From Candidatus Melainabacteria bacterium (GTDB lineage: Bacteria; Cyanobacteriota; Vampirovibrionia; Vampirovibrionales; JAJTHC01), in assembly GCA_033763415.1 (NCBI GenBank), contig JANRKP010000024.1, forward strand, positions 2,587 to 66,586: a stretch of DNA of 64,000 nt. The letters are read 5' to 3'. The number at the start of each line of letters is the position of its first letter. Position 1 is the stretch's first letter. The position numbers and the translations under genes are program-made. Of the stretch, positions 49,526 through 64,000 are shown piece after piece. Below the pieces are notes generated by a model. The model was not told where the DNA came from, made no database searches, and saw only the letters and a program-made list of their open reading frames with translations.

Positions 49526-50185
49526 ATGCTTTTTGCCCCAATGGCTCGCAGGAGTATGGGCTTCCTGCCGGAGCCACTCTTTCGAGAGCAACCACAACCA
49601 CGTTTTTCAAAATCAGTCCAACCCACTTCCTCGCCGGAGCATCCGCCGGAGGCACGCACCCTGGCGCCTGTGTGGAATCAGGTAGACACACTGCTACAAC
49701 CTTTCCTGAGCACGCCTTTTACAGGCAGCACCTCCTGGCCGGGCGTTTTACAGCAAGACGCCACCCCGTTTGCAAACAGTGAACAGTTTCAACAAGTCGC
49801 CTCATTTCAATCCATAACCGATGAAACAGGACACACCTGGCAGCAGAGCGCCGCCGCGCAACGCGCCCAGCGAGACGCTCAGCCAGCCACATTCCAATTG
49901 ACCTACCAACAGGCGCACTACCCATCTTCCGACCAGCCCGAAGCAGCGCCACTACCAGCAGGGTATGTGTTATCTGCCACCGGCACGGAGGCCACCTGGC
50001 CTGCTCAGAAAAAGGTTTTGGGGAACCCCTGGCAACTGACCCAAACTTGGCTGGAACAGGGCAAAATGACAGCCCGGCAACAATGGCAAGCCACCCGTAA
50101 CAGCATTAATGGGGTGGGCAAACACCTGGATCAGCTCATGCAACAACTGTTTGAGCCCACCCAACAAAACGCCTCACCCCTGTAA
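49526..50185 (+). CDS. hypothetical Gln-rich protein (219 aa)
   Basis: Intact ORF. No family recognized. Confidence 0.35.
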   Translation: MLFAPMARRSMGFLPEPLFREQPQPRFSKSVQPTSSPEHPPEARTLAPVWNQVDTLLQPFLSTPFTGSTSWPGVLQQDATPFANSEQFQQVASFQSITDETGHTWQQSAAAQRAQRDAQPATFQLTYQQAHYPSSDQPEAAPLPAGYVLSATGTEATWPAQKKVLGNPWQLTQTWLEQGKMTARQQWQATRNSINGVGKHLDQLMQQLFEPTQQNASPL

Positions 50186-52159: not shown

Positions 52160-54324
52160 TCGGAAAACACCTCCGCCGGATCTGCAACCGCCCGTAATTC
52201 CGTGGGTTCGTCCTGGGCACAATCAAACGAATGATCGCACTCCTGAACAAACGCCCGATAGGCAGCCACACCCCCAAGCAGCTCCCGATGGGTGCCTTGG
52301 GCCAAAACTTTGCCCTGGCTGAGGAAAACCACGTGGTCTGCCAGGTGAACCCAGGGCATTCGGTGGCTGGCAAACAGCACCGTTTTGGGCCGAACCGTCT
52401 GAAACCGCCACTGCTGCAACGCATTAATCAGGCGACGCTCTGTATCGGCGTCCACGCTGGCAAAGGGGTCATCTAACAACAACAGGGGGCTATCCCGCAG
52501 CAGGGTTCGCGCCAGGCTTACCCGCTGACGTTGCCCGCCAGACAGACTCAAGCCCCGCTGTCCTACCAGTGTTTCCAACTGTTGGGGCATGCGGTCAATA
52601 TCGGCGCGAAGTTGCGACAGATCGGCCATTGTCTCAACAGCGGCCCCATCAACCTGAGGCGAACCAAAACGCAGGTTTTCCGCCATACTGGCAGAAAACA
52701 GCAGGCTGGATTGCGGCATCAGAGACACCCAGGCGGCCACATCAGCCGCAGGAATATGGGCCAAATCGTGGTTATTTAAAAAAATGCTGCGCTTTGGCAC
52801 AGGGTAGCGCTTGGCAATTAAACGCAACAGGGTAGATTTTCCGGCGCCAACAGGCCCGATCAACGCCACCAGACTGCCCACCGGCACCTGGAATGAAACT
52901 TCATTCAAGACAAGACGCGACGGCTGGTTGTCTTTCAATACCGCCAGGCTTGGCTGTTCCGGGTCTGTGGAGGTGGATTCCGGTTGCAGGGGCTGATACG
53001 TGGGCTCGTAGGCAAACGTCAGCTTTTCCACCGAAACCGCTACGCCTTGCGCCTCGGCCTGCAACATTGCCTCGGAAAAGTGGGTCTCTATCGGCAAAAG
53101 TGCCTGCGAAGGCACGGGCACCTGCAACAACTCCGTCACACGTCCCCAGGCAACCCGGCCCTGCTGAACCAGCGTAACAGCCCAGCCCAAGGACAACGTC
53201 GGCCAGGCCAGCGCTTCCAGGTACAGGGTAAACGCCACAAAATCGGTCCGATGAAACTGCCCAGCCAGTGCCTGTTGCCCACCCACCCACAACACCAGTA
53301 GCAGTCCCAGGCCGGTCACCAAACTCATTAACAAGTACAACCAAATCCGACTGTGGATCAAGGTATGGCTGGCCTGAAAGTAGCGCTCTCCCAACTGTGA
53401 AAAACGCTTCGTCTCCCAAGGCTCTATCGCATAGGACTGAATCACGTGAATAGCAGACAGATTTTCCTGAATTCGGCTGGTTATTTGCCCCAACAGCGCC
53501 TGAACTTGCTGAAACGACGCCTTTACCTGGCGGCTGAGCAATGCAATGGCGGCTAGCGTTATGGGGTAAAGCAGGCCACAAGCCAATGTTAACGGGGCAT
53601 TCAGTTGCCACATGGCGGGCAAAGTGGCGCCGTATGCAAACAGCGTATTGAACACCAACATAATGCCGCCCCCCACCATAAAGCGCACCGCTTTCAAATC
53701 ATTGGTGAGTCTCGACATCACCTCCCCGGTGGAGTTCACGTCATAAAAAGCCGGAGGCAAACACAACAGGCGATCAAATACTTGCTGGCGCAGGGCTGCC
53801 TCCAACCGATGCGCCACCCCCAGCAACAGCATCCGCGAGGCAATTCGCACCAACAGCATCGCAACAATGACACCCAGCATCGGGTATAAATGATCCTGCC
53901 AAAGGGTATGCCAGTATACCAGGGCAGCCCCAGGCTCCAAGGATTCCAAAAGCTGCTTAAAGGCCAGTGGCAGCCAAGTCCTCAGTACATTCGTCATCGC
54001 CAGCATCAGCAGGCCCAAAACCAACCAATGCCAATCGCCTAACAGTCGGGTTACTAGCAGCCTCCAGCTTTGCTCAGGTGGGCCAGTAGGCTTCTGTGAC
54101 GAAACACGCCAAGTGCTTAACGGTGTACTCAAGGGCGCACGTCCCAGGCGAAACGCTTGCACGCATCGCCGTGCCCAACAGAAAAGGAAGAAAAACGAGT
54201 CACAAAGCCGCCACTTGATTCGCTTAGAACCACAACTATATTGTAGACTATGACAACTGCCTGCCAATGCCAAGAGCCAGACGGCTACACAGGCATATTG
54301 TAAAGGTTTTGCTGCCCTTATCAT
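52156..54324 (-). CDS. ABC exporter ATP-binding/permease subunit 1 of a heterodimer. Canonical LSGGQ, but Walker B has LLLDD instead of DE. The 5' end is probably shorter than the ORF.
   Basis: Walker A GPVGAGKST. Signature LSGGQRQRVSLAR. Walker B LLLLDDPFASVD. Confidence 0.85.
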   Translation of the reverse strand: MIRAAKPLQYACVAVWLLALAGSCHSLQYSCGSKRIKWRLCDSFFFLFCWARRCVQAFRLGRAPLSTPLSTWRVSSQKPTGPPEQSWRLLVTRLLGDWHWLVLGLLMLAMTNVLRTWLPLAFKQLLESLEPGAALVYWHTLWQDHLYPMLGVIVAMLLVRIASRMLLLGVAHRLEAALRQQVFDRLLCLPPAFYDVNSTGEVMSRLTNDLKAVRFMVGGGIMLVFNTLFAYGATLPAMWQLNAPLTLACGLLYPITLAAIALLSRQVKASFQQVQALLGQITSRIQENLSAIHVIQSYAIEPWETKRFSQLGERYFQASHTLIHSRIWLYLLMSLVTGLGLLLVLWVGGQQALAGQFHRTDFVAFTLYLEALAWPTLSLGWAVTLVQQGRVAWGRVTELLQVPVPSQALLPIETHFSEAMLQAEAQGVAVSVEKLTFAYEPTYQPLQPESTSTDPEQPSLAVLKDNQPSRLVLNEVSFQVPVGSLVALIGPVGAGKSTLLRLIAKRYPVPKRSIFLNNHDLAHIPAADVAAWVSLMPQSSLLFSASMAENLRFGSPQVDGAAVETMADLSQLRADIDRMPQQLETLVGQRGLSLSGGQRQRVSLARTLLRDSPLLLLDDPFASVDADTERRLINALQQWRFQTVRPKTVLFASHRMPWVHLADHVVFLSQGKVLAQGTHRELLGGVAAYRAFVQECDHSFDCAQDEPTELRAVADPAEVFSE

Positions 54325-54426: not shown

Positions 54427-54501
54427 GGGCGGTTAGCGCAGTGGTAGCGCACCACATTGACATTGTGGTGGTCACAGGTTCGAATCCCGTACCGCCCACC
54501 A
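54427..54501 (+). tRNA. tRNA-Val (anticodon GAC)
   Basis: Cloverleaf folded by hand. Acceptor GGGCGGT/ACCGCCC. D arm GCGC-AGTGGTA-GCGC. Anticodon stem CCACA/TGTGG with loop TTGACAT, giving anticodon GAC. T loop TTCGAAT. 3' ACCA. Confidence 0.85.
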
Positions 54502-54516
54502 TTTTTTTAAAAGAAA

Positions 54517-54551
54517 AAAGCAGCGATTGGAACCACCAGTCGCTTTTTTAC
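54517..54551 (+). terminator. Rho-independent terminator after tRNA-Val
   Basis: agcgattgg-aacca-ccagtcgct hairpin (9 bp, one G-T wobble) followed by tttttt. Confidence 0.55.
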
Positions 54552-54599
54552 TATTGAAGAAACCCCAAATATGGCCACAGAGCAAACGTAATAACGAGC

Positions 54600-55040
54600 G
54601 TGACATCCAGTTGGCAAGGAAAATATATCTTTACAATCCAAAGATGCAGCCAACCTTTATGTTACAAAGCAACAAAGGTTGGAAGCCTCCCCTCTACAAG
54701 GTGTTTTCCATTGTCTCCTATTTACGAAGTTGTGACCGGGCAAATCTTGCTTTCTAAACGAAGCGAGTTCTTTAGGCTCCACAGCGAAATGCTCCTTCCA
54801 ATGATGAAAGAAGTGGGGATTCGCCCGCTCGCTTTGCTCATTACGGAAATTGGCCATTATGGTAAATTCCTGGATATTTACATTTACAGTAGTTTGGCCG
54901 ATTACGAACAAAAAACGAACCAACTGCTCCAGGATCCCAGAATGGCTCCCTATTATGCGGCGGTGGGCCAATGTATTGCAGGCTCCATCCAAGTAGAAAT
55001 TATGGCGGATCTCCCCTATGCCAAACACTGGGTTGACTAA
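54600..55040 (+). CDS. NIPSNAP-family (Dabb-like stress-responsive dimeric alpha/beta barrel) protein. Likely TTG start at 54711 with an aaggtg RBS.
   Basis: IYEVVTGQI...ITEIGHYGKFLDIYIYSSLADYEQKTNQLLQDPRMAPYYAAV matches the NIPSNAP pattern (IYElRtY.lkpg..., iW.y.sladre......dp.w). Confidence 0.55.
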   Translation: MTSSWQGKYIFTIQRCSQPLCYKATKVGSLPSTRCFPLSPIYEVVTGQILLSKRSEFFRLHSEMLLPMMKEVGIRPLALLITEIGHYGKFLDIYIYSSLADYEQKTNQLLQDPRMAPYYAAVGQCIAGSIQVEIMADLPYAKHWVD

Positions 55041-56142
55041 AACCTGGACAGGCCGCATCCACTATTTTACGGGCGGCACGGTTGCAGAACCAAAGCAAAT
55101 TACTTACACAGCAGAGCGTTGGCATCGGTCCCTGTTTATTAAACAGCGTTTATTGGCGGCCTACGGGGTTAATGCGCAGGCAAAAGTTTTGGTGTGTTAT
55201 CCTTTTTCCCCTTGGTCAATTGGTTCGATTTTTACTGAGGCCAGTTTGTATTGCGGCGCGGAAGTTCTCCCTCTGGGCAATCATTCTACGCAAGCGGGAA
55301 TGATTGAGTCGATTCTGAGTTTTCAGCCTACCCATATTTGCTCCACTGCCCGAAATCTAATTTACCTGGCGCATCGCCTCAAAGCACTTTCGCCCAAAAA
55401 CTGGCGGCCCGAATTTACCACTGCATTTGTGGCGGGCGAAGTGTTAAAACAGCCTGTGAGAGAAAAAGCGTCTAGTTTATGGCAGGCTCAAATCGTCAAT
55501 GTCTATGGTATGGCCGAATTTGACATGCTGGGAAGCGAGCTTCCTGACCTGCCCAATACGCTATCTCTCGTGCCTGAATTTGACTACGCCATACGAGAGC
55601 TCGCATCTTCTGAGGAAAGCCTACTGGAATCCAATTACATTCCATTGGAATTGGGCATTCAGGGAGAACTGATGGTTAAAGAACGCGGCAGTTCTCAGTG
55701 GTATGCAACCGCAGATCACATTCAGGTTGTCGGCCAAACGCCCTCTCTATGGATGGAGCAGAGCAATTTGGTTCAGATTCAGGTCTTGGGCCGAATGAAC
55801 GAAAGTGTTTCTTTAGCCGATGGAACGAAAATTATTGGCGCACAGGTCGATAAAGTGTTGCTGGATCATCCAGATTTGAATCACGTGCAGGTGACGGTCA
55901 ATAAGTCGAAAAATGGCGAAAGTATTCATATTGACTGCGTTCCAAAAACGGAGCGGCAGTTACCAGACCGTCAAAAAATAAGGCAGAGCCTGCTAAAATA
56001 CAATATTGATTTGGTTGACAGTGTTCGCTCTGGCTATATTTCAAAAATTGATGTCCGCTTTATTCAAGAGGCAGAGTTACAACGTTCTATTCGAGGAAAA
56101 ATTCCACGGCTCCTGGAGGTCTGCCCCTATGAATCTGTATAA
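55018..56142 (+). CDS. ANL-superfamily adenylate-forming enzyme, phenylacetate-CoA ligase (PaaK) / coenzyme F390 synthetase-like, N-terminally short
   Basis: P-loop-like TGGTVAEPKQITYTAER near the N-terminus (compare PaaK SGTTGKPTVV.YT). A VYGMAEF adenylation-core motif. Overlaps the downstream radical SAM gene by 14 bp. Confidence 0.5.
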   Translation: MPNTGLTKTWTGRIHYFTGGTVAEPKQITYTAERWHRSLFIKQRLLAAYGVNAQAKVLVCYPFSPWSIGSIFTEASLYCGAEVLPLGNHSTQAGMIESILSFQPTHICSTARNLIYLAHRLKALSPKNWRPEFTTAFVAGEVLKQPVREKASSLWQAQIVNVYGMAEFDMLGSELPDLPNTLSLVPEFDYAIRELASSEESLLESNYIPLELGIQGELMVKERGSSQWYATADHIQVVGQTPSLWMEQSNLVQIQVLGRMNESVSLADGTKIIGAQVDKVLLDHPDLNHVQVTVNKSKNGESIHIDCVPKTERQLPDRQKIRQSLLKYNIDLVDSVRSGYISKIDVRFIQEAELQRSIRGKIPRLLEVCPYESV

Positions 56143-57466
56143 TCAGCTTGTCACACACCCTCATTTTGAACAGCGTCCAATTGATTACATTCGCTGGTAC
56201 CCCAAGGCATTGACTCCCAGTGAAACATTGACATTCGATCACACTCCTGCCACAGGAAAGATAGAAGGCATCTACATACACGTGCCTTTTTGCGATCAGC
56301 TGTGTCATTTTTGCCCGTACAACAAGCGTACTTCCGATTTAACATTAATTGAATCTTATGTGGACGCATTAATCACAGAGATTCGCTTATATCAAGAAAA
56401 AATAGACATCTCCGAATTAAATTTTATTTATTTCGGGGGTGGAACTCCCAGTGTTTTAAGCCCATCTCAAGTAGAAAAAATATTAGCCTCCATTCAAAAC
56501 TGGAAAAATATCTCACCCAAAACAGAGATTACATTCGAGTCTCATCCCTCTCATTTAACAGTCCCTTACCTCAAGAATTTAAAGCAACTCGGAATTAACC
56601 GAATCAGCTCTGGAATTCAAGCCTTTGACGACAAACTATTACGCCAGATGGGAGCCAATCATACACCTTCCCAAGCCTTTTCTGCGATTGAGGCAAGCGC
56701 AACCGTGATGGGGCACATTGCGATTGATTTACTTTACCGATGTGAGGGGCAATCCACAGAACATTGGATGGCACAATTGAAACAGGCGACAGAATTACCC
56801 GGTGTCACCCACCTTAGTTGTTACAGCCTGGTTTTAGATGATGAATCTAAACAACCTTCCCGCCTGGAAGAAGCCAAAATGATGACCGAGATGCTGGACT
56901 ATCTTTCCAGCCTAAATTACACGCATTATGCGTCGTGCGCTAGTGGTGGATTCGATTTCACGCAAGCTGGCTACCAAAGCATTTACGAAACGCGCCATTG
57001 GGAAGCGCCACAAGCGTCTTTTGTAGGGCTGGGACCAGGCGCGCTGGGCTATGTCGGTCATTACACAACCGTGAACGGACTCGACGTCAATCGATACATT
57101 CAGAAGCTCTCTGAAAAAAAGTTACCCATTGTTTCAGCCACATTAGCAGATGAAGTTGAACAGATGAGACGTTATTTTGTACTGGGTGTCAAAACGCTTC
57201 AAGTCCCATTAACCCCGTTCCAACAACAATTTAACCAAGACCCCGCTATTATTTTCAAACAAGAATTCGAACAGCTTCTCCGCTTGGGCTATGCAACTGT
57301 TGATGCAGACTTTTTAAAGTTAACTGCACTGGGACGCCTTTTTGTGGACAGCATTTCCGCTATATTTTTTAGCGCAACGCAGCGAGACATTCCTCACCCC
57401 GAAGAGCCGGAAATTCGCGCAGCAGAGCTGGCAGTTTCTCGAATACCAGTTTTAAGTTCACGTTAA
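56129..57466 (+). CDS. HemN/HemW-like radical SAM enzyme (coproporphyrinogen-III oxidase family, class C)
   Basis: CxxxCxxC radical SAM cluster motif FCDQLCHFC. The YFGGGTPS motif typical of the HemN family. Confidence 0.8.
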   Translation: MNLYNQLVTHPHFEQRPIDYIRWYPKALTPSETLTFDHTPATGKIEGIYIHVPFCDQLCHFCPYNKRTSDLTLIESYVDALITEIRLYQEKIDISELNFIYFGGGTPSVLSPSQVEKILASIQNWKNISPKTEITFESHPSHLTVPYLKNLKQLGINRISSGIQAFDDKLLRQMGANHTPSQAFSAIEASATVMGHIAIDLLYRCEGQSTEHWMAQLKQATELPGVTHLSCYSLVLDDESKQPSRLEEAKMMTEMLDYLSSLNYTHYASCASGGFDFTQAGYQSIYETRHWEAPQASFVGLGPGALGYVGHYTTVNGLDVNRYIQKLSEKKLPIVSATLADEVEQMRRYFVLGVKTLQVPLTPFQQQFNQDPAIIFKQEFEQLLRLGYATVDADFLKLTALGRLFVDSISAIFFSATQRDIPHPEEPEIRAAELAVSRIPVLSSR

Positions 57467-57496
57467 TCATTTTCTATCAAGGAGCAATACAACATT

Positions 57497-58690
57497 ATGG
57501 GCAGCCTTTTTACAAAATTAGCACTTACAGGAATAACTCAACTAACACCAATGACGGGTCTTCCTGGAGAATTAATTAGTACAAAACCAGTTCTTGAAGC
57601 AAACCGTCAGGAAGTCGTTTCTGAAGCCTCAATCAGCCCCTCTGCCGATGCATTGAGAACTGCCGTATTGGGCGTTGCAGAAGCAAAAGCAGATTCTTCC
57701 AACTTGCCGTGTGCGAGCACGGATCATCCAGCCTATTGTCCAATTGGAGTTGCTGCGTTAGCTGCGGAATTTCAGCTTTTGCAACAGCAGCAAGGATTGG
57801 GAGAGGGCGGCATGGTGTCATCTAACAGTCACACTGTAAAAGCAGGACTGCAAGGAATTGAAAATTACGGAAAAGCCGTGCTATCCGGCGATCAAATCCC
57901 GCTGGTTCACAAAGCATTTGAAAATTTAGAAAATAAAATTGAATACGAACTCGATGAATACGTCTCCAGACTTTACAACGTACCAACCTGGGCGCCTATG
58001 TTAATTCGGTTTATGTATGATCTTCATCTAGATGAAGCTTACGAAACAGAAGACCCAATGGCTGCGGTATTTGGCAGTGCAGCTATTCCATTACAAAATT
58101 TCTGGAATTACCTCACATTGCTAGACTTTGATAGCTGGTACAAAATTCGTATGGAAGCCTATACTGACGAATTTATAGATTTCAAAACATATACCATGCA
58201 AGAAGCACGTATGATGGCTCATTGCTATCAATCGTTAAACGCTGAAAGCCTTCAAGCTGCACAATTTATTAGCAGAGATGTTGCCTGTCAAACTGCGTGG
58301 AAAGCCGTTGCTAACCACACTGAAGAACACGAACTAAAAGAAAATCCTGAATTTAACGCCTATTGGGCAGGTTCCATCAGCGACGTAGCCAGACGTGCCG
58401 CTATGGAAATCGTCGCTCTTGCCAACGGATACGCAGACATCGATCAAAGCTGCTTAAGGCTATTAAAAGTAACTTTTGAAGAGCTCAATATTAATTACCA
58501 TCAAGACATTCCTGCTGACAAACAGTGCTTTGATGCAAAGCAGTTTTTTGATGTCATGGCTGCAGGCTCTCACTTGGTGCATCTAACCCAAAGTGCAGAT
58601 GCAAGAGACATGCGCGGCCTGACTTTTTTAGACGGCTTTGGTATTGGCAAAAATACGCAGGAAAGTACCTCTCAAGCACCTCGCCATTAA
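57497..58690 (+). CDS. hypothetical protein (397 aa), orphan in the island
   Basis: Intact ORF with a strong aaggag RBS. No known domain recognized. Confidence 0.45.
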   Translation: MGSLFTKLALTGITQLTPMTGLPGELISTKPVLEANRQEVVSEASISPSADALRTAVLGVAEAKADSSNLPCASTDHPAYCPIGVAALAAEFQLLQQQQGLGEGGMVSSNSHTVKAGLQGIENYGKAVLSGDQIPLVHKAFENLENKIEYELDEYVSRLYNVPTWAPMLIRFMYDLHLDEAYETEDPMAAVFGSAAIPLQNFWNYLTLLDFDSWYKIRMEAYTDEFIDFKTYTMQEARMMAHCYQSLNAESLQAAQFISRDVACQTAWKAVANHTEEHELKENPEFNAYWAGSISDVARRAAMEIVALANGYADIDQSCLRLLKVTFEELNINYHQDIPADKQCFDAKQFFDVMAAGSHLVHLTQSADARDMRGLTFLDGFGIGKNTQESTSQAPRH

Positions 58691-58742
58691 ATTTTTGAAC
58701 ACTTAAGTCCATTCCGTTCGCACGAAGGATGATCTAAATTCA

Positions 58743-59693
58743 ATGTCTAACATCCACACAGAAAATCCTAAATTCCCGGAAATTGTTCGTTTTCCGAGCA
58801 ATATATTGCTTGAACTCAACAAAAAAACACCTATTCGAAATATTTTACACATTTTATTTTGTACAGGGTTGTTTATATTACTTGGTCTGTTCAACACGCA
58901 ATACGTTCCGTGGTATTTATGGCCTTTATTGTGGCTCTTCCAAGGTTTTATGATGGTAGGCTATTTAAGCATAAGCCACGATGGCGCTCACTTTAGCTTA
59001 TTTCATCGTCCTTGGCAAAATTTGCTGTGTGGCAGACTTTGTTCACTGGTCATCCTTCAGTGCTTTTCGGTATATCGGGCCTATCATATGGAACATCACG
59101 CGCATACGGCAACAGATAAAGATACAGAACCTCGCGGAGAATTTGAAGATCTGAAAGATTATTTGTTATGTCTGAGTGGAATTCAATTTGCGCTTGACAT
59201 ATCTCTTACAGGGTGGGATACCTTGCGAGGAAAATATGCCGACTACCTAAAAACGCCTGGTGATCGCTCTGCCGCCAAGCAAGATACACTAGCATTAATT
59301 GCCTGGTTATTTTTAATGCTAATGTTCACATGGCAGGCGCCACAATTAACTCTCAATTTATACTGGGGGCCAATACTGTTTTATTTTCCAGCCGTTATTT
59401 ATTCCGGTCTTTTAGAACATTACGGCTGCGAGGAGTCAATTAATCCTCTAACAAATACCCGAAGTGTTCGTCCAGGAAGAATTTTTAATTTCTTTGACTG
59501 GAATGCAGGCTATCACGCAGAGCACCATTTATTCCCCGCAATGCCCTCAAGAAGCTATCCAAAAGTTGCCTCGATTTTAGGTAGCAGTCTTAAATACATA
59601 GAAACCTCTTATTTTCAGTTTCATTGGCGCTTAATACAACAATTACTAAACAAAAAACAAGCTCACAGAAATTTAACAGGAGCAATCAGCTAA
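58743..59693 (+). CDS. Membrane fatty-acid desaturase/hydroxylase superfamily protein (three His boxes)
   Basis: His boxes HDGAH, HMEHH and HAEHH, with hydrophobic helices between them. Confidence 0.7.
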   Translation: MSNIHTENPKFPEIVRFPSNILLELNKKTPIRNILHILFCTGLFILLGLFNTQYVPWYLWPLLWLFQGFMMVGYLSISHDGAHFSLFHRPWQNLLCGRLCSLVILQCFSVYRAYHMEHHAHTATDKDTEPRGEFEDLKDYLLCLSGIQFALDISLTGWDTLRGKYADYLKTPGDRSAAKQDTLALIAWLFLMLMFTWQAPQLTLNLYWGPILFYFPAVIYSGLLEHYGCEESINPLTNTRSVRPGRIFNFFDWNAGYHAEHHLFPAMPSRSYPKVASILGSSLKYIETSYFQFHWRLIQQLLNKKQAHRNLTGAIS

Positions 59694-59694
59694 C

Positions 59695-60480
59695 ATGACT
59701 GATGAAATTTGTATAAATAGTGTCCTAAAAAGCCCCAAAAAAATGAGATTTTTCGTTAAATTAGTCGAAAGAGAATGCCATGATACACAAGAGCGTGTCG
59801 CACTGTTGCGACACCGGTTAAAGGCTATTCGCTACCAATACCAATTAATGGAACAGCAAAAAATCCATTATGCTTTTTACCCCATTAATAAAGCTGAGGC
59901 TTATCTGTTGTACATGATTGACAGCTTGGAAGATCTCGATTTGTTACTTAAAAGAGATCCTTATTTTCCTCACACGCGAGCCGACGTCATTCCCGTAGTT
60001 AACACGGAAGCTTTAGTTCGGGAAGCACAAGATTATTTAGGAGTAGAGCATTTTAGCCAGGCAGATATCGATCAGGGCGTTTTAGATTATGGCGTACAGC
60101 CAGTTGATCAGGAAGCCGATTATTTGTTGGCAATCAAAGAAGTACCTCCTTTCAGCCCACTTCTTTCAGAAGAGGAGCAAAATGATGTACATTACCGAAC
60201 TATTTTGGCCCAAGAAGGACATTTCAGCCAAATTGAATTCTCCGATGAAAATCCAGTTGGCATGCAAGTAGGAATCACTGTCGTTAAGGGTCCGCTAGAT
60301 GAAACAAAAGCCCTGGTTGAGTCTTGCCCCGTATTTCCAGATACAATGGTAGAGTACACACATTTAATGACTTTAAAGCAGGCTTGGAAATATACAGTAG
60401 AGGAATTAGCCAAACTGCGTAGACCATTGACCACGGACGAAGCAAAATGGCCATTTGAAGCCGTAACCACTGCGAATTAG
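59695..60480 (+). CDS. hypothetical protein (261 aa), orphan in the island
   Basis: Intact ORF immediately following the desaturase-like gene with a 1-bp spacing. No known domain. Confidence 0.4.
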   Translation: MTDEICINSVLKSPKKMRFFVKLVERECHDTQERVALLRHRLKAIRYQYQLMEQQKIHYAFYPINKAEAYLLYMIDSLEDLDLLLKRDPYFPHTRADVIPVVNTEALVREAQDYLGVEHFSQADIDQGVLDYGVQPVDQEADYLLAIKEVPPFSPLLSEEEQNDVHYRTILAQEGHFSQIEFSDENPVGMQVGITVVKGPLDETKALVESCPVFPDTMVEYTHLMTLKQAWKYTVEELAKLRRPLTTDEAKWPFEAVTTAN

Positions 60481-60512
60481 GTTGAAAATTAAACTAAGAG
60501 GTTCCTAATCTT

Positions 60513-60968
60513 ATGCAGCAATTGTTTATAGTTGAATCAGTTCACCATATTGGATTAGTCGTTCGTAACGAACAAAAAGCTCGCACATTTTACACGGACA
60601 TTCTTGGATTTCAGCCCCATCATCGAGTTGATTCCTGGCTAATGCTTAATGACAAATTAAGTATTCATTTAATTGAAATTCCAGAAGCTGAAATCGTTGA
60701 TTCTTTATTCCATCAAATTAATCACGTAGCCATTCAAGTATCTGATTTAAAACCAATCTTGAAATTATTGCTAGAACATGGTCAAGCGCCCTTCCAAATG
60801 GACTTTGAAGGAGCAGAAAAACCACTCACTGATCCAGAAGACCCTATGAACTTTGGATTGGGAACCATTTTTGTAAACGACCCTGATGGGAATTTAATTG
60901 AATTTTTGCAGATGGGTCATGGTGTTTTTACAGAAGACACTGAAAGTATTGCTTATCAAACTGCATAA
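60513..60968 (+). CDS. VOC / glyoxalase-bleomycin resistance-dioxygenase superfamily protein
   Basis: N-terminal VHHIGLVVRNEQKARTFYTDILGF and C-terminal IFVNDPDGNLIEF are the paired beta-alpha-beta-beta-beta VOC motifs. Confidence 0.65.
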   Translation: MQQLFIVESVHHIGLVVRNEQKARTFYTDILGFQPHHRVDSWLMLNDKLSIHLIEIPEAEIVDSLFHQINHVAIQVSDLKPILKLLLEHGQAPFQMDFEGAEKPLTDPEDPMNFGLGTIFVNDPDGNLIEFLQMGHGVFTEDTESIAYQTA

Positions 60969-61007
60969 AGCTGCCGTCAAGTTAATTTACAAGAATCAAA
61001 GCTATTA

Positions 61008-61673
61008 TTGACTACAATGACTCAGCAATCTGAAAACATCTCTATTGAAGAACAAATAAAACAGGCCTATTTTTGGGCGGCTTACGAAGACGAACAACCT
61101 GCATTGATGCTGGATGGAACCGTGTGTCAACCGTGGCAAGTTCGTGAATGGGGCGGGTTTTCTCTCAGAGGGCTGATGGAAAAACACTTTGAGGAAGCTT
61201 TTGCGTTATCGGAGCCCTGGGTGCATGACCCATCGGTCAACGTTCGGCGAGGTGCCCTAATTGGGTGTAAATTAACCAAAAAGTCCGCCACGCCAGAGCG
61301 GGTTCATCAAGTACTGGAAAGAATTAGCCACTTTATGTCCGATGAAAACGACTATATTAAAAAGAATTGCGGTCCGTTTGTTGTCAATGAATTAGGCAGC
61401 CTTCAGCCAGAAATTGTGCTCAATTGGCTTAAGATCCAAGCCCAAATACCCAATGTTCACGTGCGCGCTAACGTGGCAAAGGCATTTACACAAGCTTTTG
61501 GCAAACGCTATCCGCAAGAAGCCATGTCCGTTTTGGAATTGCTTCGAGACGATCCAGAAAGAAGAGTGCAATCGGCTATTATTTCTGCCCTTAAAAATTT
61601 AAATAAAAATGGCGCTGTTTCCTCCGAAAATATTCGGCAGCGCTTTCCAAAACAGGCAGAGAAAGTGCTTTAG
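61008..61673 (+). CDS. HEAT-like protein, possibly of the DNA alkylation repair enzyme (AlkC/AlkD-like) family
   Basis: DENDYIKKNCGPFVVNELGSLQPEIVLNWL resembles the family pattern D..wYV.K..GW.LRE....PE.v..FL. This is a weak call. Confidence 0.35.
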   Translation: MTTMTQQSENISIEEQIKQAYFWAAYEDEQPALMLDGTVCQPWQVREWGGFSLRGLMEKHFEEAFALSEPWVHDPSVNVRRGALIGCKLTKKSATPERVHQVLERISHFMSDENDYIKKNCGPFVVNELGSLQPEIVLNWLKIQAQIPNVHVRANVAKAFTQAFGKRYPQEAMSVLELLRDDPERRVQSAIISALKNLNKNGAVSSENIRQRFPKQAEKVL

Positions 61674-62455
61674 TATCTTGAATTACCCTCAGCCTGCTCA
61701 AATAGTGCTAGATTTTCCACAACCTGGCTACATTGCTCTGGAGAGTTGTCTAGCGCCTGAGGATAATGTAAAACCCAGTCTTCATCAAATATCGCCATAT
61801 TGGGTACAGTTGCTGGAATTGCTAACGCCATCGAATGGGCCGTATCTGCCACCAGCGCTGAGCGATGCAACAAAACAGGCTGTATGGCAGTGGTCACAGG
61901 TTCTATCCCTACGGCAGGTATTGCCAAAAGATGGTTCAAGCTTGTGCCAAACAAAGATTGTTGACTGCTAGCATGCAAACGACCAATTAGTATCAACGGG
62001 GCCCCAGAGTGCCTGGTAAGTCGATCCGTAATTTTACCGTGCCAGGCGGCGTGGAGACTTTCTGCCCCGCTATCGCATAGACTGGGATCAAAAGTGGGAA
62101 GACCATAAACCGGCACCTGTTTTAATTTAGCAACCCGAAGTATTTCCAATAAACCGGCCAAAACACGTTTTCGAGCAGATAGACTTTCAATATTCAGATG
62201 AATCCATAAGTAATAATGAAGCGGCCAAAATAAGGGCTTGTCTGCCAAATAATCTTGGACGAAACCTTCTATTTCTTCAGAAATATGCTCCAAAAATAAT
62301 ACGGGGGTAATTTCCTCTGGCGCCTCTAACAGGAGACGTGCTAACAAATATTTAGAGAAAATGGTCAGATGATCCTCTGCCAGCACCAAGCCGCAAGATT
62401 TTGTAAACAAGCTCCACACAGCAGACAAACTCACAGGGAACGCTCCATTAAACAA
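61670..62455 (-). CDS. hypothetical protein (261 aa), the only minus-strand gene in the island
   Basis: Intact ORF convergent with the flanking plus-strand genes. Confidence 0.4.
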   Translation of the reverse strand: MFNGAFPVSLSAVWSLFTKSCGLVLAEDHLTIFSKYLLARLLLEAPEEITPVLFLEHISEEIEGFVQDYLADKPLFWPLHYYLWIHLNIESLSARKRVLAGLLEILRVAKLKQVPVYGLPTFDPSLCDSGAESLHAAWHGKITDRLTRHSGAPLILIGRLHASSQQSLFGTSLNHLLAIPAVGIEPVTTAIQPVLLHRSALVADTAHSMALAIPATVPNMAIFDEDWVLHYPQALDNSPEQCSQVVENLALFEQAEGNSRY

Positions 62456-62508
62456 AATTTTCGGGTTATTACAACAATTGTTGAATTTTATTATACCCTG
62501 AGTTAGGA

Positions 62509-63063
62509 TTGTTTTCAGTAAATTGTGCGGTCCACAGCGCTACCCCGTTTAATCAGCGTCGTATTGGAATGGCTATGTCTCACGTAGATGCGTTTGTTCG
62601 TAAAAATCAAACCCAAATAACGATTCGGACTGCTACTTTGAACGATATGGAAGCCTTGCTCCCGTTATTTCATGCGTATCGAAAAACGTTGGAGCGTGAA
62701 CCGAACGAGGCGCTAACTCGCAAATTTATTCAAGATCGTCTCCAATATAACCAAACGCTTATGTTTGTTGCATTTTGCGATCAGGTACTCTGCGGCATGC
62801 TTCACGTAAGCCCCATCTATTGCCTGAGAACACTAAAAACACAATGGTTGTTGGACAATCTCTACGTAGTGCCCGAATACCGGCAATACCCCATTCAGGT
62901 ACAACTGGTCAAAGCCGCGCAGCACCACGCCAAACAACGCGCTTCGGATTGGATGTTTAGCTTTATTGCGCGGGACAATCAGTCGTTAAAATCATTGCTC
63001 ATCGATCAATTTCACTTTTTGCCCGACCAGGACCATGGATTTTACTATGCGCCTGTTCAGTAG
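62509..63063 (+). CDS. GNAT-family N-acetyltransferase (probable)
   Basis: LLDNLYVVPEYRQYPIQVQLVKAAQHHAKQ resembles GNAT motif A (V.P.yRg.GiG..L). Confidence 0.45.
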   Translation: MFSVNCAVHSATPFNQRRIGMAMSHVDAFVRKNQTQITIRTATLNDMEALLPLFHAYRKTLEREPNEALTRKFIQDRLQYNQTLMFVAFCDQVLCGMLHVSPIYCLRTLKTQWLLDNLYVVPEYRQYPIQVQLVKAAQHHAKQRASDWMFSFIARDNQSLKSLLIDQFHFLPDQDHGFYYAPVQ

Positions 63064-63072
63064 CTTTTAAGC

Positions 63073-64000
63073 AATGACGCCCCTTTGCGCCACTATGCTT
63101 TTTTTAGCCAAGCACCAGACGACTACGCCAACCCCTTATTTGGCCCGCGCACAACGTCTGTTTAAAACATCCGAATCCGCACTGTTATGTGACTTGTACG
63201 GCCAGGACTATGTTTGGGCTCTCTGTAGCGATAACATTATTCGGGAACTGAGACATAAACTAAAGCAAGGAAAAATTTTGTCTTTTCGGGAGCTGGAAGC
63301 ACAAGCCAGAGCGCACTACCGCCAAATTAAACTGGAAAACGAAACACGGCTACACAAACAGTTTTTAAATACGCTCAATCCTACCGATCTCGCCCTGTAT
63401 CAGTATTTGAGTCAACACGGGTTTGATAAAGCGGCTTGCCAGCCAGAGGCGGTAGAAGCGCTGTTAAATCAGACTGGGCCAAATATAACGCCGAGTCGGT
63501 TTATGGAGGAGTCTTTCTTTCGCTCTGACGATCTGGGCCCCATCATTGGCAAAATGTTAGAGGCAAGATCTGCTTTTGGCCTGGACCCGTTTGGTGTAGA
63601 GGCCTTTGGCATTCCTCGCACGGAGACGGATGGCTACGAAAAAATTGTGTGCCAGGTCAATCGAGACACTGGTACGAGCCGGTGGCAGGGAAATGCGGTT
63701 GGAAAAATGTTTGAGTCCTCCCTGTCTATGCTTGACAGAGAAGCTTTGCAGACGGTTTGGCAACCGGTAACTGCCCCCCAGGAACTGTTACAAGTGCCTG
63801 AACTGGCCAATTATCTTGCCCACTTTGAACAACTACAATTGGCGGTATGGAAAAAGCAGTCGCCATTGCTCCAACTGCCCCAACCGCTGATGACAGTATA
63901 TGCGCTGAAACTGCCGCATAAAACGGCGGCGGCGGTCTGGATGGCCAGCAGTCCGCAAAATATCCCCCCGGTGTTTCGCCACCTGGAACAGTGTTTTTTC
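63073..64000 (+). CDS. hypothetical protein, 3'-truncated by the window edge
   Basis: Open frame from ATG 63073 to the window end (MTPLCATMLFLAKHQ...). It is not in the ORF track because no stop falls within the window. Confidence 0.4.

What the first reader, a model, noticed from the sequence alone, without database searches (positions are those of the whole stretch)
54427..64000. Lower-GC island downstream of tRNA-Val with an unusual enzyme set: candidate uncharacterized biosynthetic or resistance system
From the tRNA-Val(GAC) and its terminator onward, base composition shifts visibly toward AT. Genes are tightly packed and almost all lie on the plus strand. They encode a NIPSNAP protein, a PaaK/F390-synthetase-like adenylating enzyme, a HemN-like class C radical SAM enzyme, an orphan 397-aa protein, a three-His-box membrane desaturase/hydroxylase, an orphan 261-aa protein, a VOC protein, an AlkD-like HEAT protein, another orphan, and a GNAT. 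An insertion next to a tRNA with atypical composition is a classic sign of horizontal acquisition. The enzyme combination is adenylation plus a HemN-like radical SAM enzyme, which elsewhere carries out methylation or cyclopropanation, plus oxidative lipid-type tailoring and three resistance-type folds (VOC, AlkD-like, GNAT). It does not match any well-known cluster type I can name.
Basis: partly seen in the sequence, partly recalled or inferred. Interest (0 to 1): 0.8.

Follow-up and report, generated by a model that had tools for sequence, protein, structure and literature searches.

The report
Mobile radical-SAM gene cassette, unknown product
The low-GC block after the tRNA-Val gene is real and looks horizontally acquired; it carries one copy of an undescribed gene cassette found across many bacterial phyla, which most likely builds a small aromatic, probably quinone-type, metabolite.

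Summary
tRNA-Val(GAC) lies at 54427-54501, followed by a terminator hairpin. GC then falls from 0.536 to 0.439, eight SD below same-length windows of the flank.

The block is not a one-off. All 11 genes recur in the same order, at 46-75% aa identity, in one other metagenomic lineage.

A six-gene core recurs in Bacillota, Alpha-, Beta- and Gammaproteobacteria, Acidobacteriota and Latescibacterota, often beside mobility genes. The core comprises:
- an AlkD2-like HEAT protein;
- a VOC protein that keeps its metal site;
- the "orphan" 261-aa protein, which is a tandem muconolactone-isomerase-like protein;
- a NIPSNAP protein;
- an N-terminally truncated adenylating ligase;
- a distinct HemN/HemW-like radical SAM subfamily.

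In five related cassettes a futalosine set (MqnE/A/C/D) sits between the radical SAM and HEAT genes. This points to 1,4-dihydroxy-6-naphthoate as the scaffold there. The window copy has no such genes.

Best reading, with moderate confidence: a mobile small-molecule pathway that activates an aryl acid, adds a C1 unit by radical SAM chemistry and tailors the product oxidatively. The product is unknown, and I found no paper describing the cassette. The "lipid tailoring" and "three resistance genes" readings are not supported as stated.

The parts
54427..54501 (+). tRNA-Val(GAC); left landmark of the island
   Evidence: ARAGORN; Rfam tRNA 69.6 bits
54522..54551 (+). terminator-like hairpin plus T run after the tRNA
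   Evidence: sequence
54711..55040 (+). NIPSNAP-family protein, about 109 aa. The ORF opens at GTG 54600, but the likely start is TTG 54711, preceded by AAGGTG. It overlaps the next gene by 23 nt. Core cassette member.
   Evidence: Pfam NIPSNAP 29.4 bits; 48-67% identical to homologues in other phyla that start at this point; sequence
55018..56142 (+). Short adenylate-forming (ANL/PaaK-like) ligase, 374 aa. The P-loop starts at residue about 20, so the usual N-terminal subdomain is absent. Core member.
   Evidence: Pfam AMP-binding 41.6 bits, matching profile positions 169-329. NCBIfam F390/DVU_1553/PaaK hits lie far below cutoffs. Invariant YGxAE, D233, R259 and RxK361 motifs in 11 homologues.
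56132..57466 (+). HemN/HemW-like radical SAM enzyme, 444 aa, of a distinct subfamily; presumed class C C1-transferase. Overlaps the ligase gene by 11 nt. Core member.
   Evidence: Radical_SAM plus HemN_C. HemW 196 < 205, ChuW/HutW 162 < 400, HemN 127 < 325 bits. About 110 subfamily clusters score at or above roughly 270 bits, against HemW-like proteins at or below 193. Alignment invariants. PDB: HemN 89 bits, NocN 88 bits.
57497..58690 (+). 397-aa protein of a very rare family, predicted all-helical. The conserved core is residues about 77-340. Accessory member.
   Evidence: No Pfam or NCBIfam hit. 2 clusters in 5.8 billion. 8 representatives in 1.84 billion. Weak relative L091:4584-5414 heads a related cassette. 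The AF2 model is unusable, pLDDT 36.
58743..59693 (+). Three-His-box di-iron membrane desaturase/hydroxylase, 316 aa. Frequent accessory member.
   Evidence: Pfam FA_desaturase 133.7 bits; best NCBIfam hit GntB at 56 bits, cutoff 380; homologues in 8 related cassettes
59695..60480 (+). 261-aa tandem muconolactone-isomerase-like (ferredoxin-like alpha+beta barrel) protein. Core member.
   Evidence: Family alignment; profile against PDB hits 5-chloromuconolactone dehalogenase at E 3.7e-4; Sulfobacillus orthologue carries a faint Pfam MIase hit; present in 15 of 17 cassettes
60513..60968 (+). Single-domain VOC/glyoxalase-fold protein, 151 aa, with a conserved metal site. Near-core member.
   Evidence: Pfam Glyoxalase 52 bits; H12, H36, H52, H71 and E130 invariant in 10 homologues
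61008..61673 (+). HEAT-like-repeat protein, 221 aa, of the AlkD superfamily and closest to AlkD2. Core member.
61670..62455 (-). 261-aa protein of unknown fold on the minus strand. Found only in the window and L001/L002.
   Evidence: 49% identical orthologue at the same position in L001; no Pfam hit
62509..63063 (+). GNAT acetyltransferase. ORF is 184 aa; the probable start is ATG 62569 or 62575. Found only in the window and L001/L002.
   Evidence: Pfam Acetyltransf_1 23 bits; weak AAC(6') hits; 58% identical orthologue in L001; called as 162 aa in L100
63071..64000 (+). 5' part of a gene that runs off the window. Its L001 orthologue (384 aa) has a C-terminal AvrB_AvrC-like segment. Last syntenic gene seen.
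   Evidence: 46% identity to L001:15560-16714; Pfam AvrB_AvrC 37 bits on residues 309-383 of the L001 protein; no Pfam hit on the truncated window copy

Best explanation
The region is a horizontally acquired island. It starts right after tRNA-Val and its terminator and runs past the window end. It carries one member of a previously undescribed, mobile, cross-phylum gene cassette.

The conserved core of the cassette is a NIPSNAP protein, an N-terminally truncated adenylate-forming ligase, a distinct HemN/HemW-like radical SAM enzyme, a tandem muconolactone-isomerase-like protein, a metal-binding VOC enzyme and an AlkD2-like HEAT protein. A di-iron membrane oxygenase is a frequent accessory.

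Proposed mechanism (inferred, not shown):
1. The ligase adenylates an aromatic carboxylic acid, possibly passing it on to CoA or an amine.
2. The radical SAM enzyme uses class C chemistry. One SAM gives 5'-deoxyadenosyl radical, which makes a methylene radical on a second SAM. That radical adds to an sp2 ring carbon and installs a C1 unit.
3. The VOC metalloenzyme, the di-iron oxygenase and the two ferredoxin-like-fold proteins (NIPSNAP and MIase-like) then oxidise or isomerise the ring system.
4. The HEAT protein either binds the product or an intermediate, or protects the producer.

In five related cassettes, including some of the closest relatives of the window copy, the scaffold is very probably 1,4-dihydroxy-6-naphthoate. 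A MqnE/MqnA/MqnC/MqnD set is embedded there between the radical SAM and HEAT genes. The window copy lacks those genes, so its substrate must come from host metabolism or be a different aryl acid. The end product is unknown; a small, redox-active, quinone-type metabolite is the most coherent guess.
For: Island: composition statistics and tRNA adjacency. The L001 homologue of the block has the GC of its own flanks, so low GC is a property of this copy and not of the genes.

The cassette is a unit:
- All 11 genes are syntenic in L001/L002 at 46-75% aa identity, while the flanks differ.
- Core genes co-occur around the radical SAM gene in Shouchella clausii, Acidovorax, Sinorhizobium meliloti, Latescibacterota, Pyrinomonadaceae, a gammaproteobacterial MAG, Sulfobacillus and several metagenome contigs.
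- Start/stop overlaps of NIPSNAP with the ligase and of the ligase with the radical SAM gene suggest co-translation.

Mobility: relatives lie next to TniQ/TniB, T4SS plus relaxase, TrwC, phage-like genes and a recombinase or IS element.

The radical SAM enzyme is not HemN, HemW or ChuW. All three score below their curated cutoffs. The subfamily is sharply separated from HemW and there are no haem genes nearby.

The ligase is probably active. The P-loop, YGxAE, TGD-type Asp, hinge Arg and catalytic Lys are conserved.

The VOC metal ligands are invariant.

Naphthoate link:
- The MqnE/A/C/D set is embedded in L011, L089, L090, L095 and L096.
- L090 MqnC scores 434 bits, at or above the equivalog cutoff of 428.
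- In an unsupported NJ tree the window radical SAM enzyme falls in the part of the tree that holds the Mqn-containing cassettes.
- Precedent: the PM100117/18 cluster embeds MqnA/C/D/E to make DH6N, which is then methylated and loaded through a CoA-ligase-type domain (PMC4763440).

Quinone-flavoured accessories recur: an NfsA-like nitroreductase, FMN_red, an amine-oxidase-type flavoprotein, AhpC, GST and two-domain VOCs. MFS exporters and LuxR-type regulators are present in some copies.

Class C enzymes are known to act on sp2 carbons of quinones and other aromatics (PMC10114718).
Against: - No product, substrate or activity is known for any member. Every mechanistic step is inference from families.
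- The window copy, and most copies in ubiquinone-only Proteobacteria, lack Mqn genes. No Mqn/Men homologue was found in the other 54 kb of the window. The naphthoate assignment therefore may not transfer.
- By HMM score the radical SAM enzyme is nearest HemW, a haem chaperone (196 bits against a cutoff of 205). C1-transfer activity is assumed, not shown.
- The ligase matches PaaK/F390 models only weakly (PDB best 27 bits).
- A PaaK-like ligase, a muconolactone-isomerase-like protein and a VOC also fit an aromatic catabolic or detoxifying route.
- No integrase or att repeat lies in the window.
- No member was found in 72,556 PLSDB plasmids.
Confidence: 0.5

Rival explanations
1. Catabolic or detoxifying module. 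The cassette takes up or meets an aromatic acid or quinone, activates it as a CoA thioester (PaaK-like), and opens or rearranges the ring (VOC dioxygenase, muconolactone-isomerase-like protein). The radical SAM enzyme handles an oxygen-independent step.
For: Weak PaaK-type hits for the ligase. The 261-aa family resembles 5-chloromuconolactone dehalogenase and muconolactone isomerase. The VOC keeps a His/His/Glu triad like extradiol dioxygenases. GST, AhpC, nitroreductase and two-domain VOCs occur in relatives. A TctC-type binding protein sits in L005.
Against: Five cassettes embed a biosynthetic Mqn set that makes an aromatic acid rather than consuming one. Exporter-type MFS genes and LuxR regulators are present. 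There are no thiolase, hydratase or beta-oxidation-type genes to finish a degradation. The cassette is too compact and too patchily distributed for a nutritional pathway.
Confidence: 0.2
2. Modifier of an endogenous quinone or other redox cofactor. The radical SAM enzyme methylates or methylenates a respiratory quinone or its precursor, as MenK/MqnK/MenK2 do. The remaining proteins are helpers.
For: Class C enzymes MenK/MqnK/MenK2 methylate menaquinone (PMC10114718). Mqn genes are embedded in several cassettes. Some rare quinones still lack known enzymes (PMC13386864).
Against: No prenyltransferase or UbiD/UbiX-type decarboxylase lies in any cassette, so the embedded Mqn set stops at the free naphthoate. 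Carriage is sporadic, strain-specific and next to mobile elements. Exporters are present. The ligase, VOC, MIase-like and HEAT partners are not part of the known MenK/MqnK systems (own knowledge).
Confidence: 0.1
3. Haem-related system. The radical SAM protein is a HemW-like haem chaperone, a ChuW-like anaerobic haem-degrading enzyme, or an ordinary HemN.
Against: All curated cutoffs are missed. The subfamily is cleanly separated from HemW and carries its own invariant N-terminal RWYPK segment. No haem synthesis, uptake or haem-protein genes occur in any of the 17 contexts.
Confidence: 0.05
4. Not an acquired island. The block is a native, merely AT-richer and weakly expressed part of this genome that happens to lie next to a tRNA.
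For: No integrase, transposase or att repeat in the window. A related lineage (L001) carries the same block at native GC.
Against: GC is 8 sd below the flank, GC3 is lower by 0.1-0.35, and the tetranucleotide distance is 1.6 times the largest flank value. The flanks of the window and of L001 share nothing. The cassette family is scattered over at least seven phyla or classes next to mobility genes.
Confidence: 0.1

Closest known systems
Yatakemycin / CC-1065 clusters (HemN-like YtkT/C10P with AlkD-like glycosylases YtkR2/C10R5)
   Same: A HemN-like radical SAM enzyme and an AlkD-superfamily HEAT-like-repeat protein are encoded in one cluster (PMC10114718; PMC8626424). A VOC protein and, in this copy, a GNAT sit alongside.
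   Different: The cassette has none of the many other genes of those roughly 30-gene actinomycete clusters. It is 6-11 genes long and spread over many phyla. The HEAT protein is closest to AlkD2, which has no glycosylase activity (PMC4433238), and has W-x3-E where AlkD has Trp109-x3-Asp113. An equivalent of the third catalytic residue, Trp187, was not established. No C10Q-type partner is present, except possibly an LCM-family methyltransferase in the Shouchella copy.
Naphthoquinone sub-pathway of the PM100117/PM100118 cluster (gonM1-M4)
   Same: Dedicated MqnA/C/D/E paralogues inside a secondary-metabolite cluster supply 1,4-dihydroxy-6-naphthoate. This is then C-methylated and activated at its carboxylate (PMC4763440). 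The same logic is proposed for the Mqn-containing cassettes L011, L089, L090, L095 and L096.
   Different: There, methylation is assigned to a conventional methyltransferase and loading to a PKS CAL domain, and the unit is attached to a macrolide. Here a radical SAM enzyme and a free-standing truncated ligase are used and no PKS is present. The window copy has no Mqn genes at all.
MenK / MqnK / MenK2 class C radical SAM menaquinone methyltransferases
   Same: HemN-like enzymes that add a methyl group to the naphthoquinone ring (PMC10114718). Some cassettes are genomically linked to futalosine genes.
   Different: Those act on prenylated menaquinone as single genes in respiratory metabolism. 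I could not compare sequences because no MenK model or sequence was available. The conserved NIPSNAP, ligase, MIase-like, VOC and HEAT partners are not described for them.
HemW / HemN / ChuW-HutW
   Same: Same fold family: Radical_SAM plus HemN_C, a CxxxCxxC motif and GGGTP.
   Different: All scores are below the curated cutoffs. The fourth cysteine of HemN (own knowledge) is absent from the sequence. The subfamily has its own N-terminal extension. There is no haem gene context.
Aerobic aromatic catabolism modules (PaaK ligase; muconolactone isomerase / chloromuconolactone dehalogenase; extradiol VOC dioxygenases)
   Same: The same three protein folds occur together.
   Different: Matches are remote: PaaK 27.6 bits against a cutoff of 646, and MIase E 3.7e-4. 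The MIase-like protein is a tandem fusion. The module is coupled to a radical SAM enzyme and, in relatives, to a biosynthetic supply of the aromatic acid.

Membership tests
tRNA-associated genomic island | lies directly next to a tRNA gene | tested here: met
   tRNA-Val at 54427-54501. The first island gene starts at about 54711.
tRNA-associated genomic island | composition differs from the host genome | tested here: met
   GC 0.439 against 0.536; GC3 and tetranucleotide deviations.
tRNA-associated genomic island | integrase and a direct repeat of the tRNA 3' end at the far border | tested here: not met
   No integrase-like ORF in 54.5-64 kb. No second copy of the 25-nt tRNA 3' end at up to 3 mismatches. 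The far border lies beyond the window, so this is not final.
tRNA-associated genomic island | absent from the same site in close relatives | not testable with these tools
   No sister genome was retrievable. The only close relative of the block (L001/L002) has different flanks.
Oxygen-independent coproporphyrinogen III oxidase HemN | reaches the TIGR00538 equivalog score; has haem-pathway context | tested here: not met
   127.4 bits against a cutoff of 324.95. No haem genes in any context.
Haem chaperone HemW | reaches the TIGR00539 equivalog score | tested here: not met
   196.3 bits against a cutoff of 205.4. The subfamily is separated from HemW-named proteins, at or above roughly 270 bits against at or below 193.
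ChuW/HutW anaerobic haem-degrading methyltransferase | reaches the TIGR04107 equivalog score | tested here: not met
   162.1 bits against a cutoff of 400.
Class C radical SAM methylases (functional class) | HemN-like architecture: radical SAM core with CxxxCxxC plus a HemN_C domain | tested here: met
   Pfam PF04055 64.6 bits and PF06969 26.8 bits. C55, C59, C62, the Y-x-H motif before the cluster and GGG-P are invariant in 31 members.
Class C radical SAM methylases (functional class) | transfers a SAM-derived C1 unit to an sp2 carbon, releasing SAH | not testable with these tools
   Needs enzymology. Inferred only from family and context.
MenK/MqnK/MenK2 menaquinone methyltransferases | published signature motifs or sequence clustering with characterised members | not tested
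   No MenK/MqnK model in NCBIfam hits and no reference sequences were available.
AlkD/YtkR2-type HEAT-like-repeat DNA glycosylases | HEAT-like-repeat solenoid fold of the AlkD superfamily | tested here: inconclusive
AlkD/YtkR2-type HEAT-like-repeat DNA glycosylases | catalytic Trp109, Asp113 and Trp187 (PMC8626424) and the minor-groove DNA-binding helix (PMC4433238) | tested here: inconclusive
   Invariant W43-x3-E47 aligns with the W-x3-E of AlkD2. The nearest relative, AlkD2, lacks excision activity. The Trp187 equivalent and the DNA-binding helix could not be assessed.
Phenylacetate-CoA ligase PaaK / F390 synthetase | reaches the equivalog scores (TIGR02155, TIGR03335) | tested here: not met
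   27.6 bits against 646.3, and 42.5 bits against 458.7.
ANL adenylate-forming superfamily | core motifs: P-loop, YGxxE, (T)GD, hinge Arg and C-terminal catalytic Lys | tested here: met
   Pfam AMP-binding 41.6 bits against a cutoff of 29.9. Y163, G164, E167, D233, R259, R359 and K361 are invariant; TGGTxxxP(K/R) lies at the N-terminus. The N-terminal subdomain before the P-loop is missing.
Membrane fatty-acid desaturase/hydroxylase superfamily | Pfam PF00487 with three His boxes | tested here: met
   133.7 bits against a cutoff of 29.7. HDGAH, HMEHHAH and HAEHH are present in the translation. The substrate is not assignable; best hit is GntB at 56 bits against 380.
VOC metalloenzymes (as opposed to metal-free binding proteins) | conserved metal-ligand His/Glu positions | tested here: met
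   H12, H71 and E130 are invariant, plus H36 and H52, in 10 homologues. Assigning them as ligands rests on general knowledge of the VOC fold.
Muconolactone isomerase family (PF02426) | significant match to MIase profiles or structures | tested here: inconclusive
   No Pfam hit for the window protein. The family profile hits 5-chloromuconolactone dehalogenase at E 3.7e-4 and MIase at E 0.5. The precomputed MIase hit on the L102 orthologue is 'faint'.
Futalosine-derived naphthoquinone clusters | MqnA/C/D/E genes inside the cluster | tested here: not met
   Absent from the window. Present in relatives L011, L089, L090, L095 and L096.
Known anti-phage defence systems | match to a PADLOC model | tested here: not met
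   No hit for any of 10 proteins.

The most novel reading that the evidence does not exclude
The cassette is a compact, widely transferred pathway to a new class of bioreductive DNA-alkylating quinone.

The proposed chain is:
1. The radical SAM enzyme puts a C1 unit on a (naphtho)quinol ring.
2. The di-iron membrane oxygenase hydroxylates that carbon.
3. Reduction, by the nitroreductase or FMN-reductase partners or by the target cell, then yields a quinone-methide-type or cyclopropane-type electrophile.
4. The AlkD2-like HEAT protein and the VOC protein are the matching self-protection functions.

This would give AlkD2-type proteins, which so far have no known role, a function. It would be a minimal, cross-phylum counterpart of the yatakemycin/CC-1065 pairing of a HemN-like enzyme with an AlkD-like protein.
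Probability: 0.12. Interest if true: 0.85.

Novelty: new variant of a known kind. Interest (0 to 1): 0.62.

Why it matters
HemN-like radical SAM enzymes are routinely mis-annotated as coproporphyrinogen oxidases, and only a handful have known reactions. This work defines a new subfamily of about 110 sequence clusters. It has five constant partner proteins, three of which have no assigned role (NIPSNAP, the tandem MIase-like protein and the AlkD2-like HEAT protein).

The subfamily also comes with a concrete substrate lead, 1,4-dihydroxy-6-naphthoate. Cultured carriers exist in which it can be tested: Shouchella clausii, Acidovorax facilis, Azospirillum brasilense and Sinorhizobium meliloti.

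If the product is bioactive, this is an overlooked metabolite class that moves between phyla, here into a non-photosynthetic relative of cyanobacteria. It could also give a first function to AlkD2-type proteins.

Tried and rejected
- Ordinary haem hemN with neighbours: rejected. Scores lie below the cutoffs and there is no haem context.
- Known defence system: no PADLOC hit.
- Riboswitch or other RNA element in the leader: the Rfam E-value scan of 53.8-64 kb found only the tRNA.
- att-type repeat of the tRNA 3' end: none. A 14-nt exact repeat of an internal tRNA segment at 61890-61903 is about what chance allows.
- Exact-match look-up of the 397-aa protein to recover the rest of the contig: not on record. 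Look-up through the HEAT protein gave only short Logan contigs (3.4 and 1.4 kb) that do not pass the window end.
- Genome-collection scan with the radical SAM alignment: swamped by HemW, with only 3 of 80 loci useful.
- Metagenome scan with the 261-aa family: the first alignment was too diverse. The second gave 7 loci, 2 of them long.
- Structure of the 397-aa protein: the AF2 model has pLDDT 36 and is unusable, so no fold search was run.
- PLSDB plasmids searched with the radical SAM protein: no match.
- Small conserved 86-aa protein as a possible carrier protein: the sequence has no carrier-protein features and no Pfam hit.
- HemN2 and 7-hydroxytropolone paper: concerns a housekeeping hemN and is irrelevant.
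- Look-up of the Azospirillum member: not on record.

Full report
1. Observation

ARAGORN finds a single tRNA in the window, tRNA-Val(GAC), at 54427-54501 on the + strand (Rfam 69.6 bits). A hairpin at 54522-54544 with a T run follows it.

From there to the window end the composition is clearly different:
- GC is 0.439, against 0.536 for the first 54.4 kb. Same-length windows of the flank never fall below 0.514 (sd 0.012).
- Third-position GC of the island genes is 0.27-0.53, against 0.59-0.63 in flank genes.
- The tetranucleotide distance to the flank is 0.335, against at most 0.205 for any flank chunk.

The flank looks like host core DNA. It holds RibD and a heterodimeric ABC exporter pair at native GC. 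GC rises again in the last, truncated gene, so the right border is at or beyond base 64000.

2. Gene content

Corrections:
- The NIPSNAP gene most likely starts at TTG 54711, not at the ORF's first GTG. Homologues begin there and an AAGGTG precedes it.
- The gene at 61670-62455 is on the minus strand. It is real, with a 49% identical orthologue at the same place in L001. The overlapping 120-aa + strand ORF is not real.
- An eleventh gene (63071 onward) belongs to the block.
- NIPSNAP overlaps the ligase gene by 23 nt, and the ligase overlaps the radical SAM gene by 11 nt. This suggests the three are made together.

3. Source and nearest relative

The 397-aa protein is 100% identical to a hypothetical protein of a 'Candidatus Melainabacteria bacterium' MAG (locus tag SFZ03_08195, contig 74,405 bp). 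It has only one other relative among 5.8 billion protein clusters. An exhaustive HMMER search of 1.84 billion representatives found 8 family members.

That relative lies on a 182-kb JGI contig (L001) and a Logan contig (L002). There all eleven genes occur in the same order and orientation at 46-75% aa identity, while the flanks share nothing with the window.

In L001 the block has the same GC as its flanks (0.50-0.58). The gene order is therefore conserved between two lineages of different composition, and low GC is peculiar to the window copy. This is what one expects if the window copy arrived from a lower-GC donor.

4. A cross-phylum cassette

The radical SAM protein defines a sharply bounded subfamily. 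About 110 clusters at 90% identity score roughly 270-1000 bits. After a gap come HemW-named proteins at 193 bits or less. An alignment of 31 members has 60 invariant positions, including an N-terminal RWYPK segment.

I examined the gene neighbourhoods of 17 members. They come from Shouchella clausii, Sulfobacillus, Acidovorax facilis, Sinorhizobium meliloti, a Latescibacterota MAG, a Pyrinomonadaceae MAG, a gammaproteobacterial MAG and metagenome contigs. By my count from the map, the radical SAM gene is accompanied as follows:

| Partner | Loci out of 17 |
|---|---|
| HEAT protein | 16 |
| 261-aa family | 15 |
| Truncated ligase | nearly all |
| NIPSNAP protein | 13 |
| VOC | 10 |
| Di-iron membrane enzyme | 8 |

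The Pyrinomonadaceae copy is a tidy operon: HEAT-VOC-261aa-NIPSNAP-ligase-rSAM.

The 397-aa protein has one weak relative, which heads a related cassette (L091). The minus-strand gene, the GNAT and the last gene are confined to the window and L001/L002.

Several copies sit beside mobility genes:
- Tn7-type TniQ/TniB;
- a T4SS and relaxase;
- TrwC;
- phage-like genes;
- a recombinase or an IS element.

Against this, no member occurs in the 72,556 PLSDB plasmids.

5. What the parts are

Radical SAM enzyme. It is not HemN, HemW or ChuW/HutW by the curated cutoffs: 127 against 325, 196 against 205, and 162 against 400 bits. It is equally distant from the solved HemN and from the class C methylase NocN (89 and 88 bits).

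Ligase. It keeps the adenylation motifs: a TGGTxxxPK P-loop, YGxAE, the TGD-type Asp, the hinge Arg and the C-terminal RGK Lys. Its P-loop begins at about residue 20, so the usual N-terminal subdomain is missing. The upstream, overlapping NIPSNAP protein may substitute for it; this is inference.

The 261-aa 'orphan'. It is a tandem of two muconolactone-isomerase-like halves. The family profile hits 5-chloromuconolactone dehalogenase at E 3.7e-4, and the Sulfobacillus orthologue carries a faint Pfam MIase hit.

VOC family. H12, H36, H52, H71 and E130 are invariant. This is the pattern of a metal-dependent enzyme rather than a metal-free drug-binding protein.

HEAT protein. It models with high confidence (pLDDT 91).
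- At sequence level the best single-stretch PDB matches are AlkD2 and AlkC.
- The family's invariant W-x3-E, RR and Y(V/I)(K/R)K motifs align with AlkD2.
- AlkD's catalytic residues are Trp109, Asp113 and Trp187 (PMC8626424). AlkD2 binds DNA weakly and has no alkylpurine excision activity (PMC4433238).
- The protein is therefore an AlkD-superfamily member of unproven function.

6. Substrate lead

In five cassettes (L011, L089, L090, L095, L096) a MqnE-like radical SAM, a MqnA-type, a MqnC and a MqnD-type gene lie between the class C radical SAM gene and the HEAT gene. Four of the five also carry a pyruvoyl SAM-decarboxylase-like gene there, which L011 lacks. The L090 MqnC reaches its equivalog cutoff (434 against 428 bits). 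L089 and L095 have the next-closest radical SAM enzymes after L001 (about 53% identity).

With a housekeeping nucleosidase, these four enzymes make 1,4-dihydroxy-6-naphthoate (established futalosine pathway; summarised in PMC4763440). No prenyltransferase or decarboxylase follows, so the free aryl acid is the likely substrate of the ligase.

A precedent exists. The PM100117/18 cluster embeds the same four genes to make DH6N, which is then C-methylated and loaded through a CoA-ligase-type domain. Class C enzymes are known to add C1 units to sp2 carbons of menaquinone, anthraquinone, indole, thiazole and benzodipyrrole rings (PMC10114718).

Recurrent accessories also suit a redox-active quinone or quinol:
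- an NfsA-like nitroreductase;
- an FMN_red-type reductase;
- an amine-oxidase-type flavoprotein;
- AhpC;
- GST;
- two-domain VOCs.

In a neighbour-joining tree without support values, the window and L001 group with the Mqn-containing gammaproteobacterial copy and the Bacillota copies.

The window itself has no Mqn or Men homologue. Many carriers are ubiquinone-only Proteobacteria. The scaffold may therefore differ between sub-types.

7. Explanation and rivals

I consider a mobile small-molecule biosynthetic cassette the most likely reading (confidence about 0.5). The steps are aryl-acid adenylation, radical SAM C1 transfer and oxidative or isomerising tailoring by the VOC, di-iron and ferredoxin-like-fold proteins. 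The HEAT protein would act as a binder or protector.

Rivals:
- An aromatic catabolic or detoxifying module (0.2). It fits the PaaK/MIase/VOC fold trio, but not the embedded biosynthetic supply, the exporters or the lack of downstream degradative genes.
- Modification of an endogenous quinone or cofactor (0.1). It fits MenK-like chemistry, but not the sporadic, mobile carriage.
- A haem-related role (0.05). The scores are near HemW, but there is no haem context.
- 'Not an island' (0.1). No integrase or att site was seen.

The most novel reading not excluded is a bioreductive DNA-alkylating quinone with AlkD2-like self-protection (about 0.12).

8. Novelty

Full-text searches found no paper that links a NIPSNAP protein with a HemN-like enzyme, or that describes this cassette. 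The 2022 survey of HemN-like proteins notes several uncharacterised bacterial subclades.

I rate this a new variant of a known kind: a class-C-type radical SAM gene cluster with a new, conserved partner set and a new substrate lead.

Limits:
- No experiment has been done.
- The contexts sampled are 17 out of about 110.
- The 397-aa protein remains without a fold (AF2 pLDDT 36).

Noticed in passing
window 63071-64000 (+); L001:15560-16714: The last gene of the block runs off the window. Its 384-aa orthologue in L001 has a C-terminal 75-residue match to Pfam AvrB_AvrC (37 bits). That is a Pseudomonas syringae type III effector family, unexpected in a Melainabacteria-type MAG.
   Followed up: partly
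L001:7233-7563 and L002 (same DNA): The NIPSNAP gene of the closest relative is split by a frameshift. The N-terminal 30 residues are in one frame and the rest in another, identically in a JGI and a Logan assembly. This is either a pseudogene or a shared sequencing error.
   Followed up: partly
L003:4492-5616, L005:7511-8614, L011:3-773: Three bacterial cassettes carry a second radical SAM protein related to the archaeal archaeosine enzyme RaSEA (TIGR01210, 183 bits against a cutoff of 212). It has a C-x8-C-x2-C motif and its role is unknown.
   Followed up: partly
L090:16340-16600, L089:6810-7064, L005:11384-11641, L001:17896-18309(-) and 18406-18687(-): A small conserved protein of about 86 aa (MKHA..LE.LL...RGVFY.RSK.FLHFH.DP.GL.AD.R) has no Pfam match. 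It follows the HEAT gene in Mqn-type cassettes and occurs twice just beyond the block in L001. The window may carry it beyond base 64000.
   Followed up: partly
window 54468-54481 and 61890-61903: A 14-nt exact direct repeat of an internal segment of tRNA-Val lies inside the minus-strand gene. About 0.2 such matches are expected by chance in 9.7 kb, and it does not include the tRNA 3' end. It is probably chance.
   Followed up: yes
window 50174-52222 (-) and 52156-54324 (-): Two half-transporter ABC exporter genes (ABC_membrane plus ABC_tran) at native GC lie immediately upstream of the tRNA. As listed, the ORFs overlap by 67 nt. They were not co-transferred with the island, and any link to export of its product is untested.
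   Followed up: partly
L102 (Sulfobacillus thermosulfidooxidans MAG, 9.3 kb): A rearranged copy of the cassette reads: HEAT (-), MIase-like 230 aa, radical SAM, a 382-aa protein, an FMN_red-type reductase, MFS, and a longer (431 aa) AMP-binding enzyme. No NIPSNAP gene was called. This fits the idea that NIPSNAP stands in for the ligase N-terminus.
   Followed up: no
L005, L007, L089, L090, L095, L096: A pyruvoyl-type S-adenosylmethionine-decarboxylase-like gene recurs in the cassettes (TIGR03330, 68 bits against a cutoff of 75.65 for the L090 protein). It lies directly after MqnD in the Mqn type. No aminopropyl transferase is nearby and its role is unexplained.
   Followed up: partly
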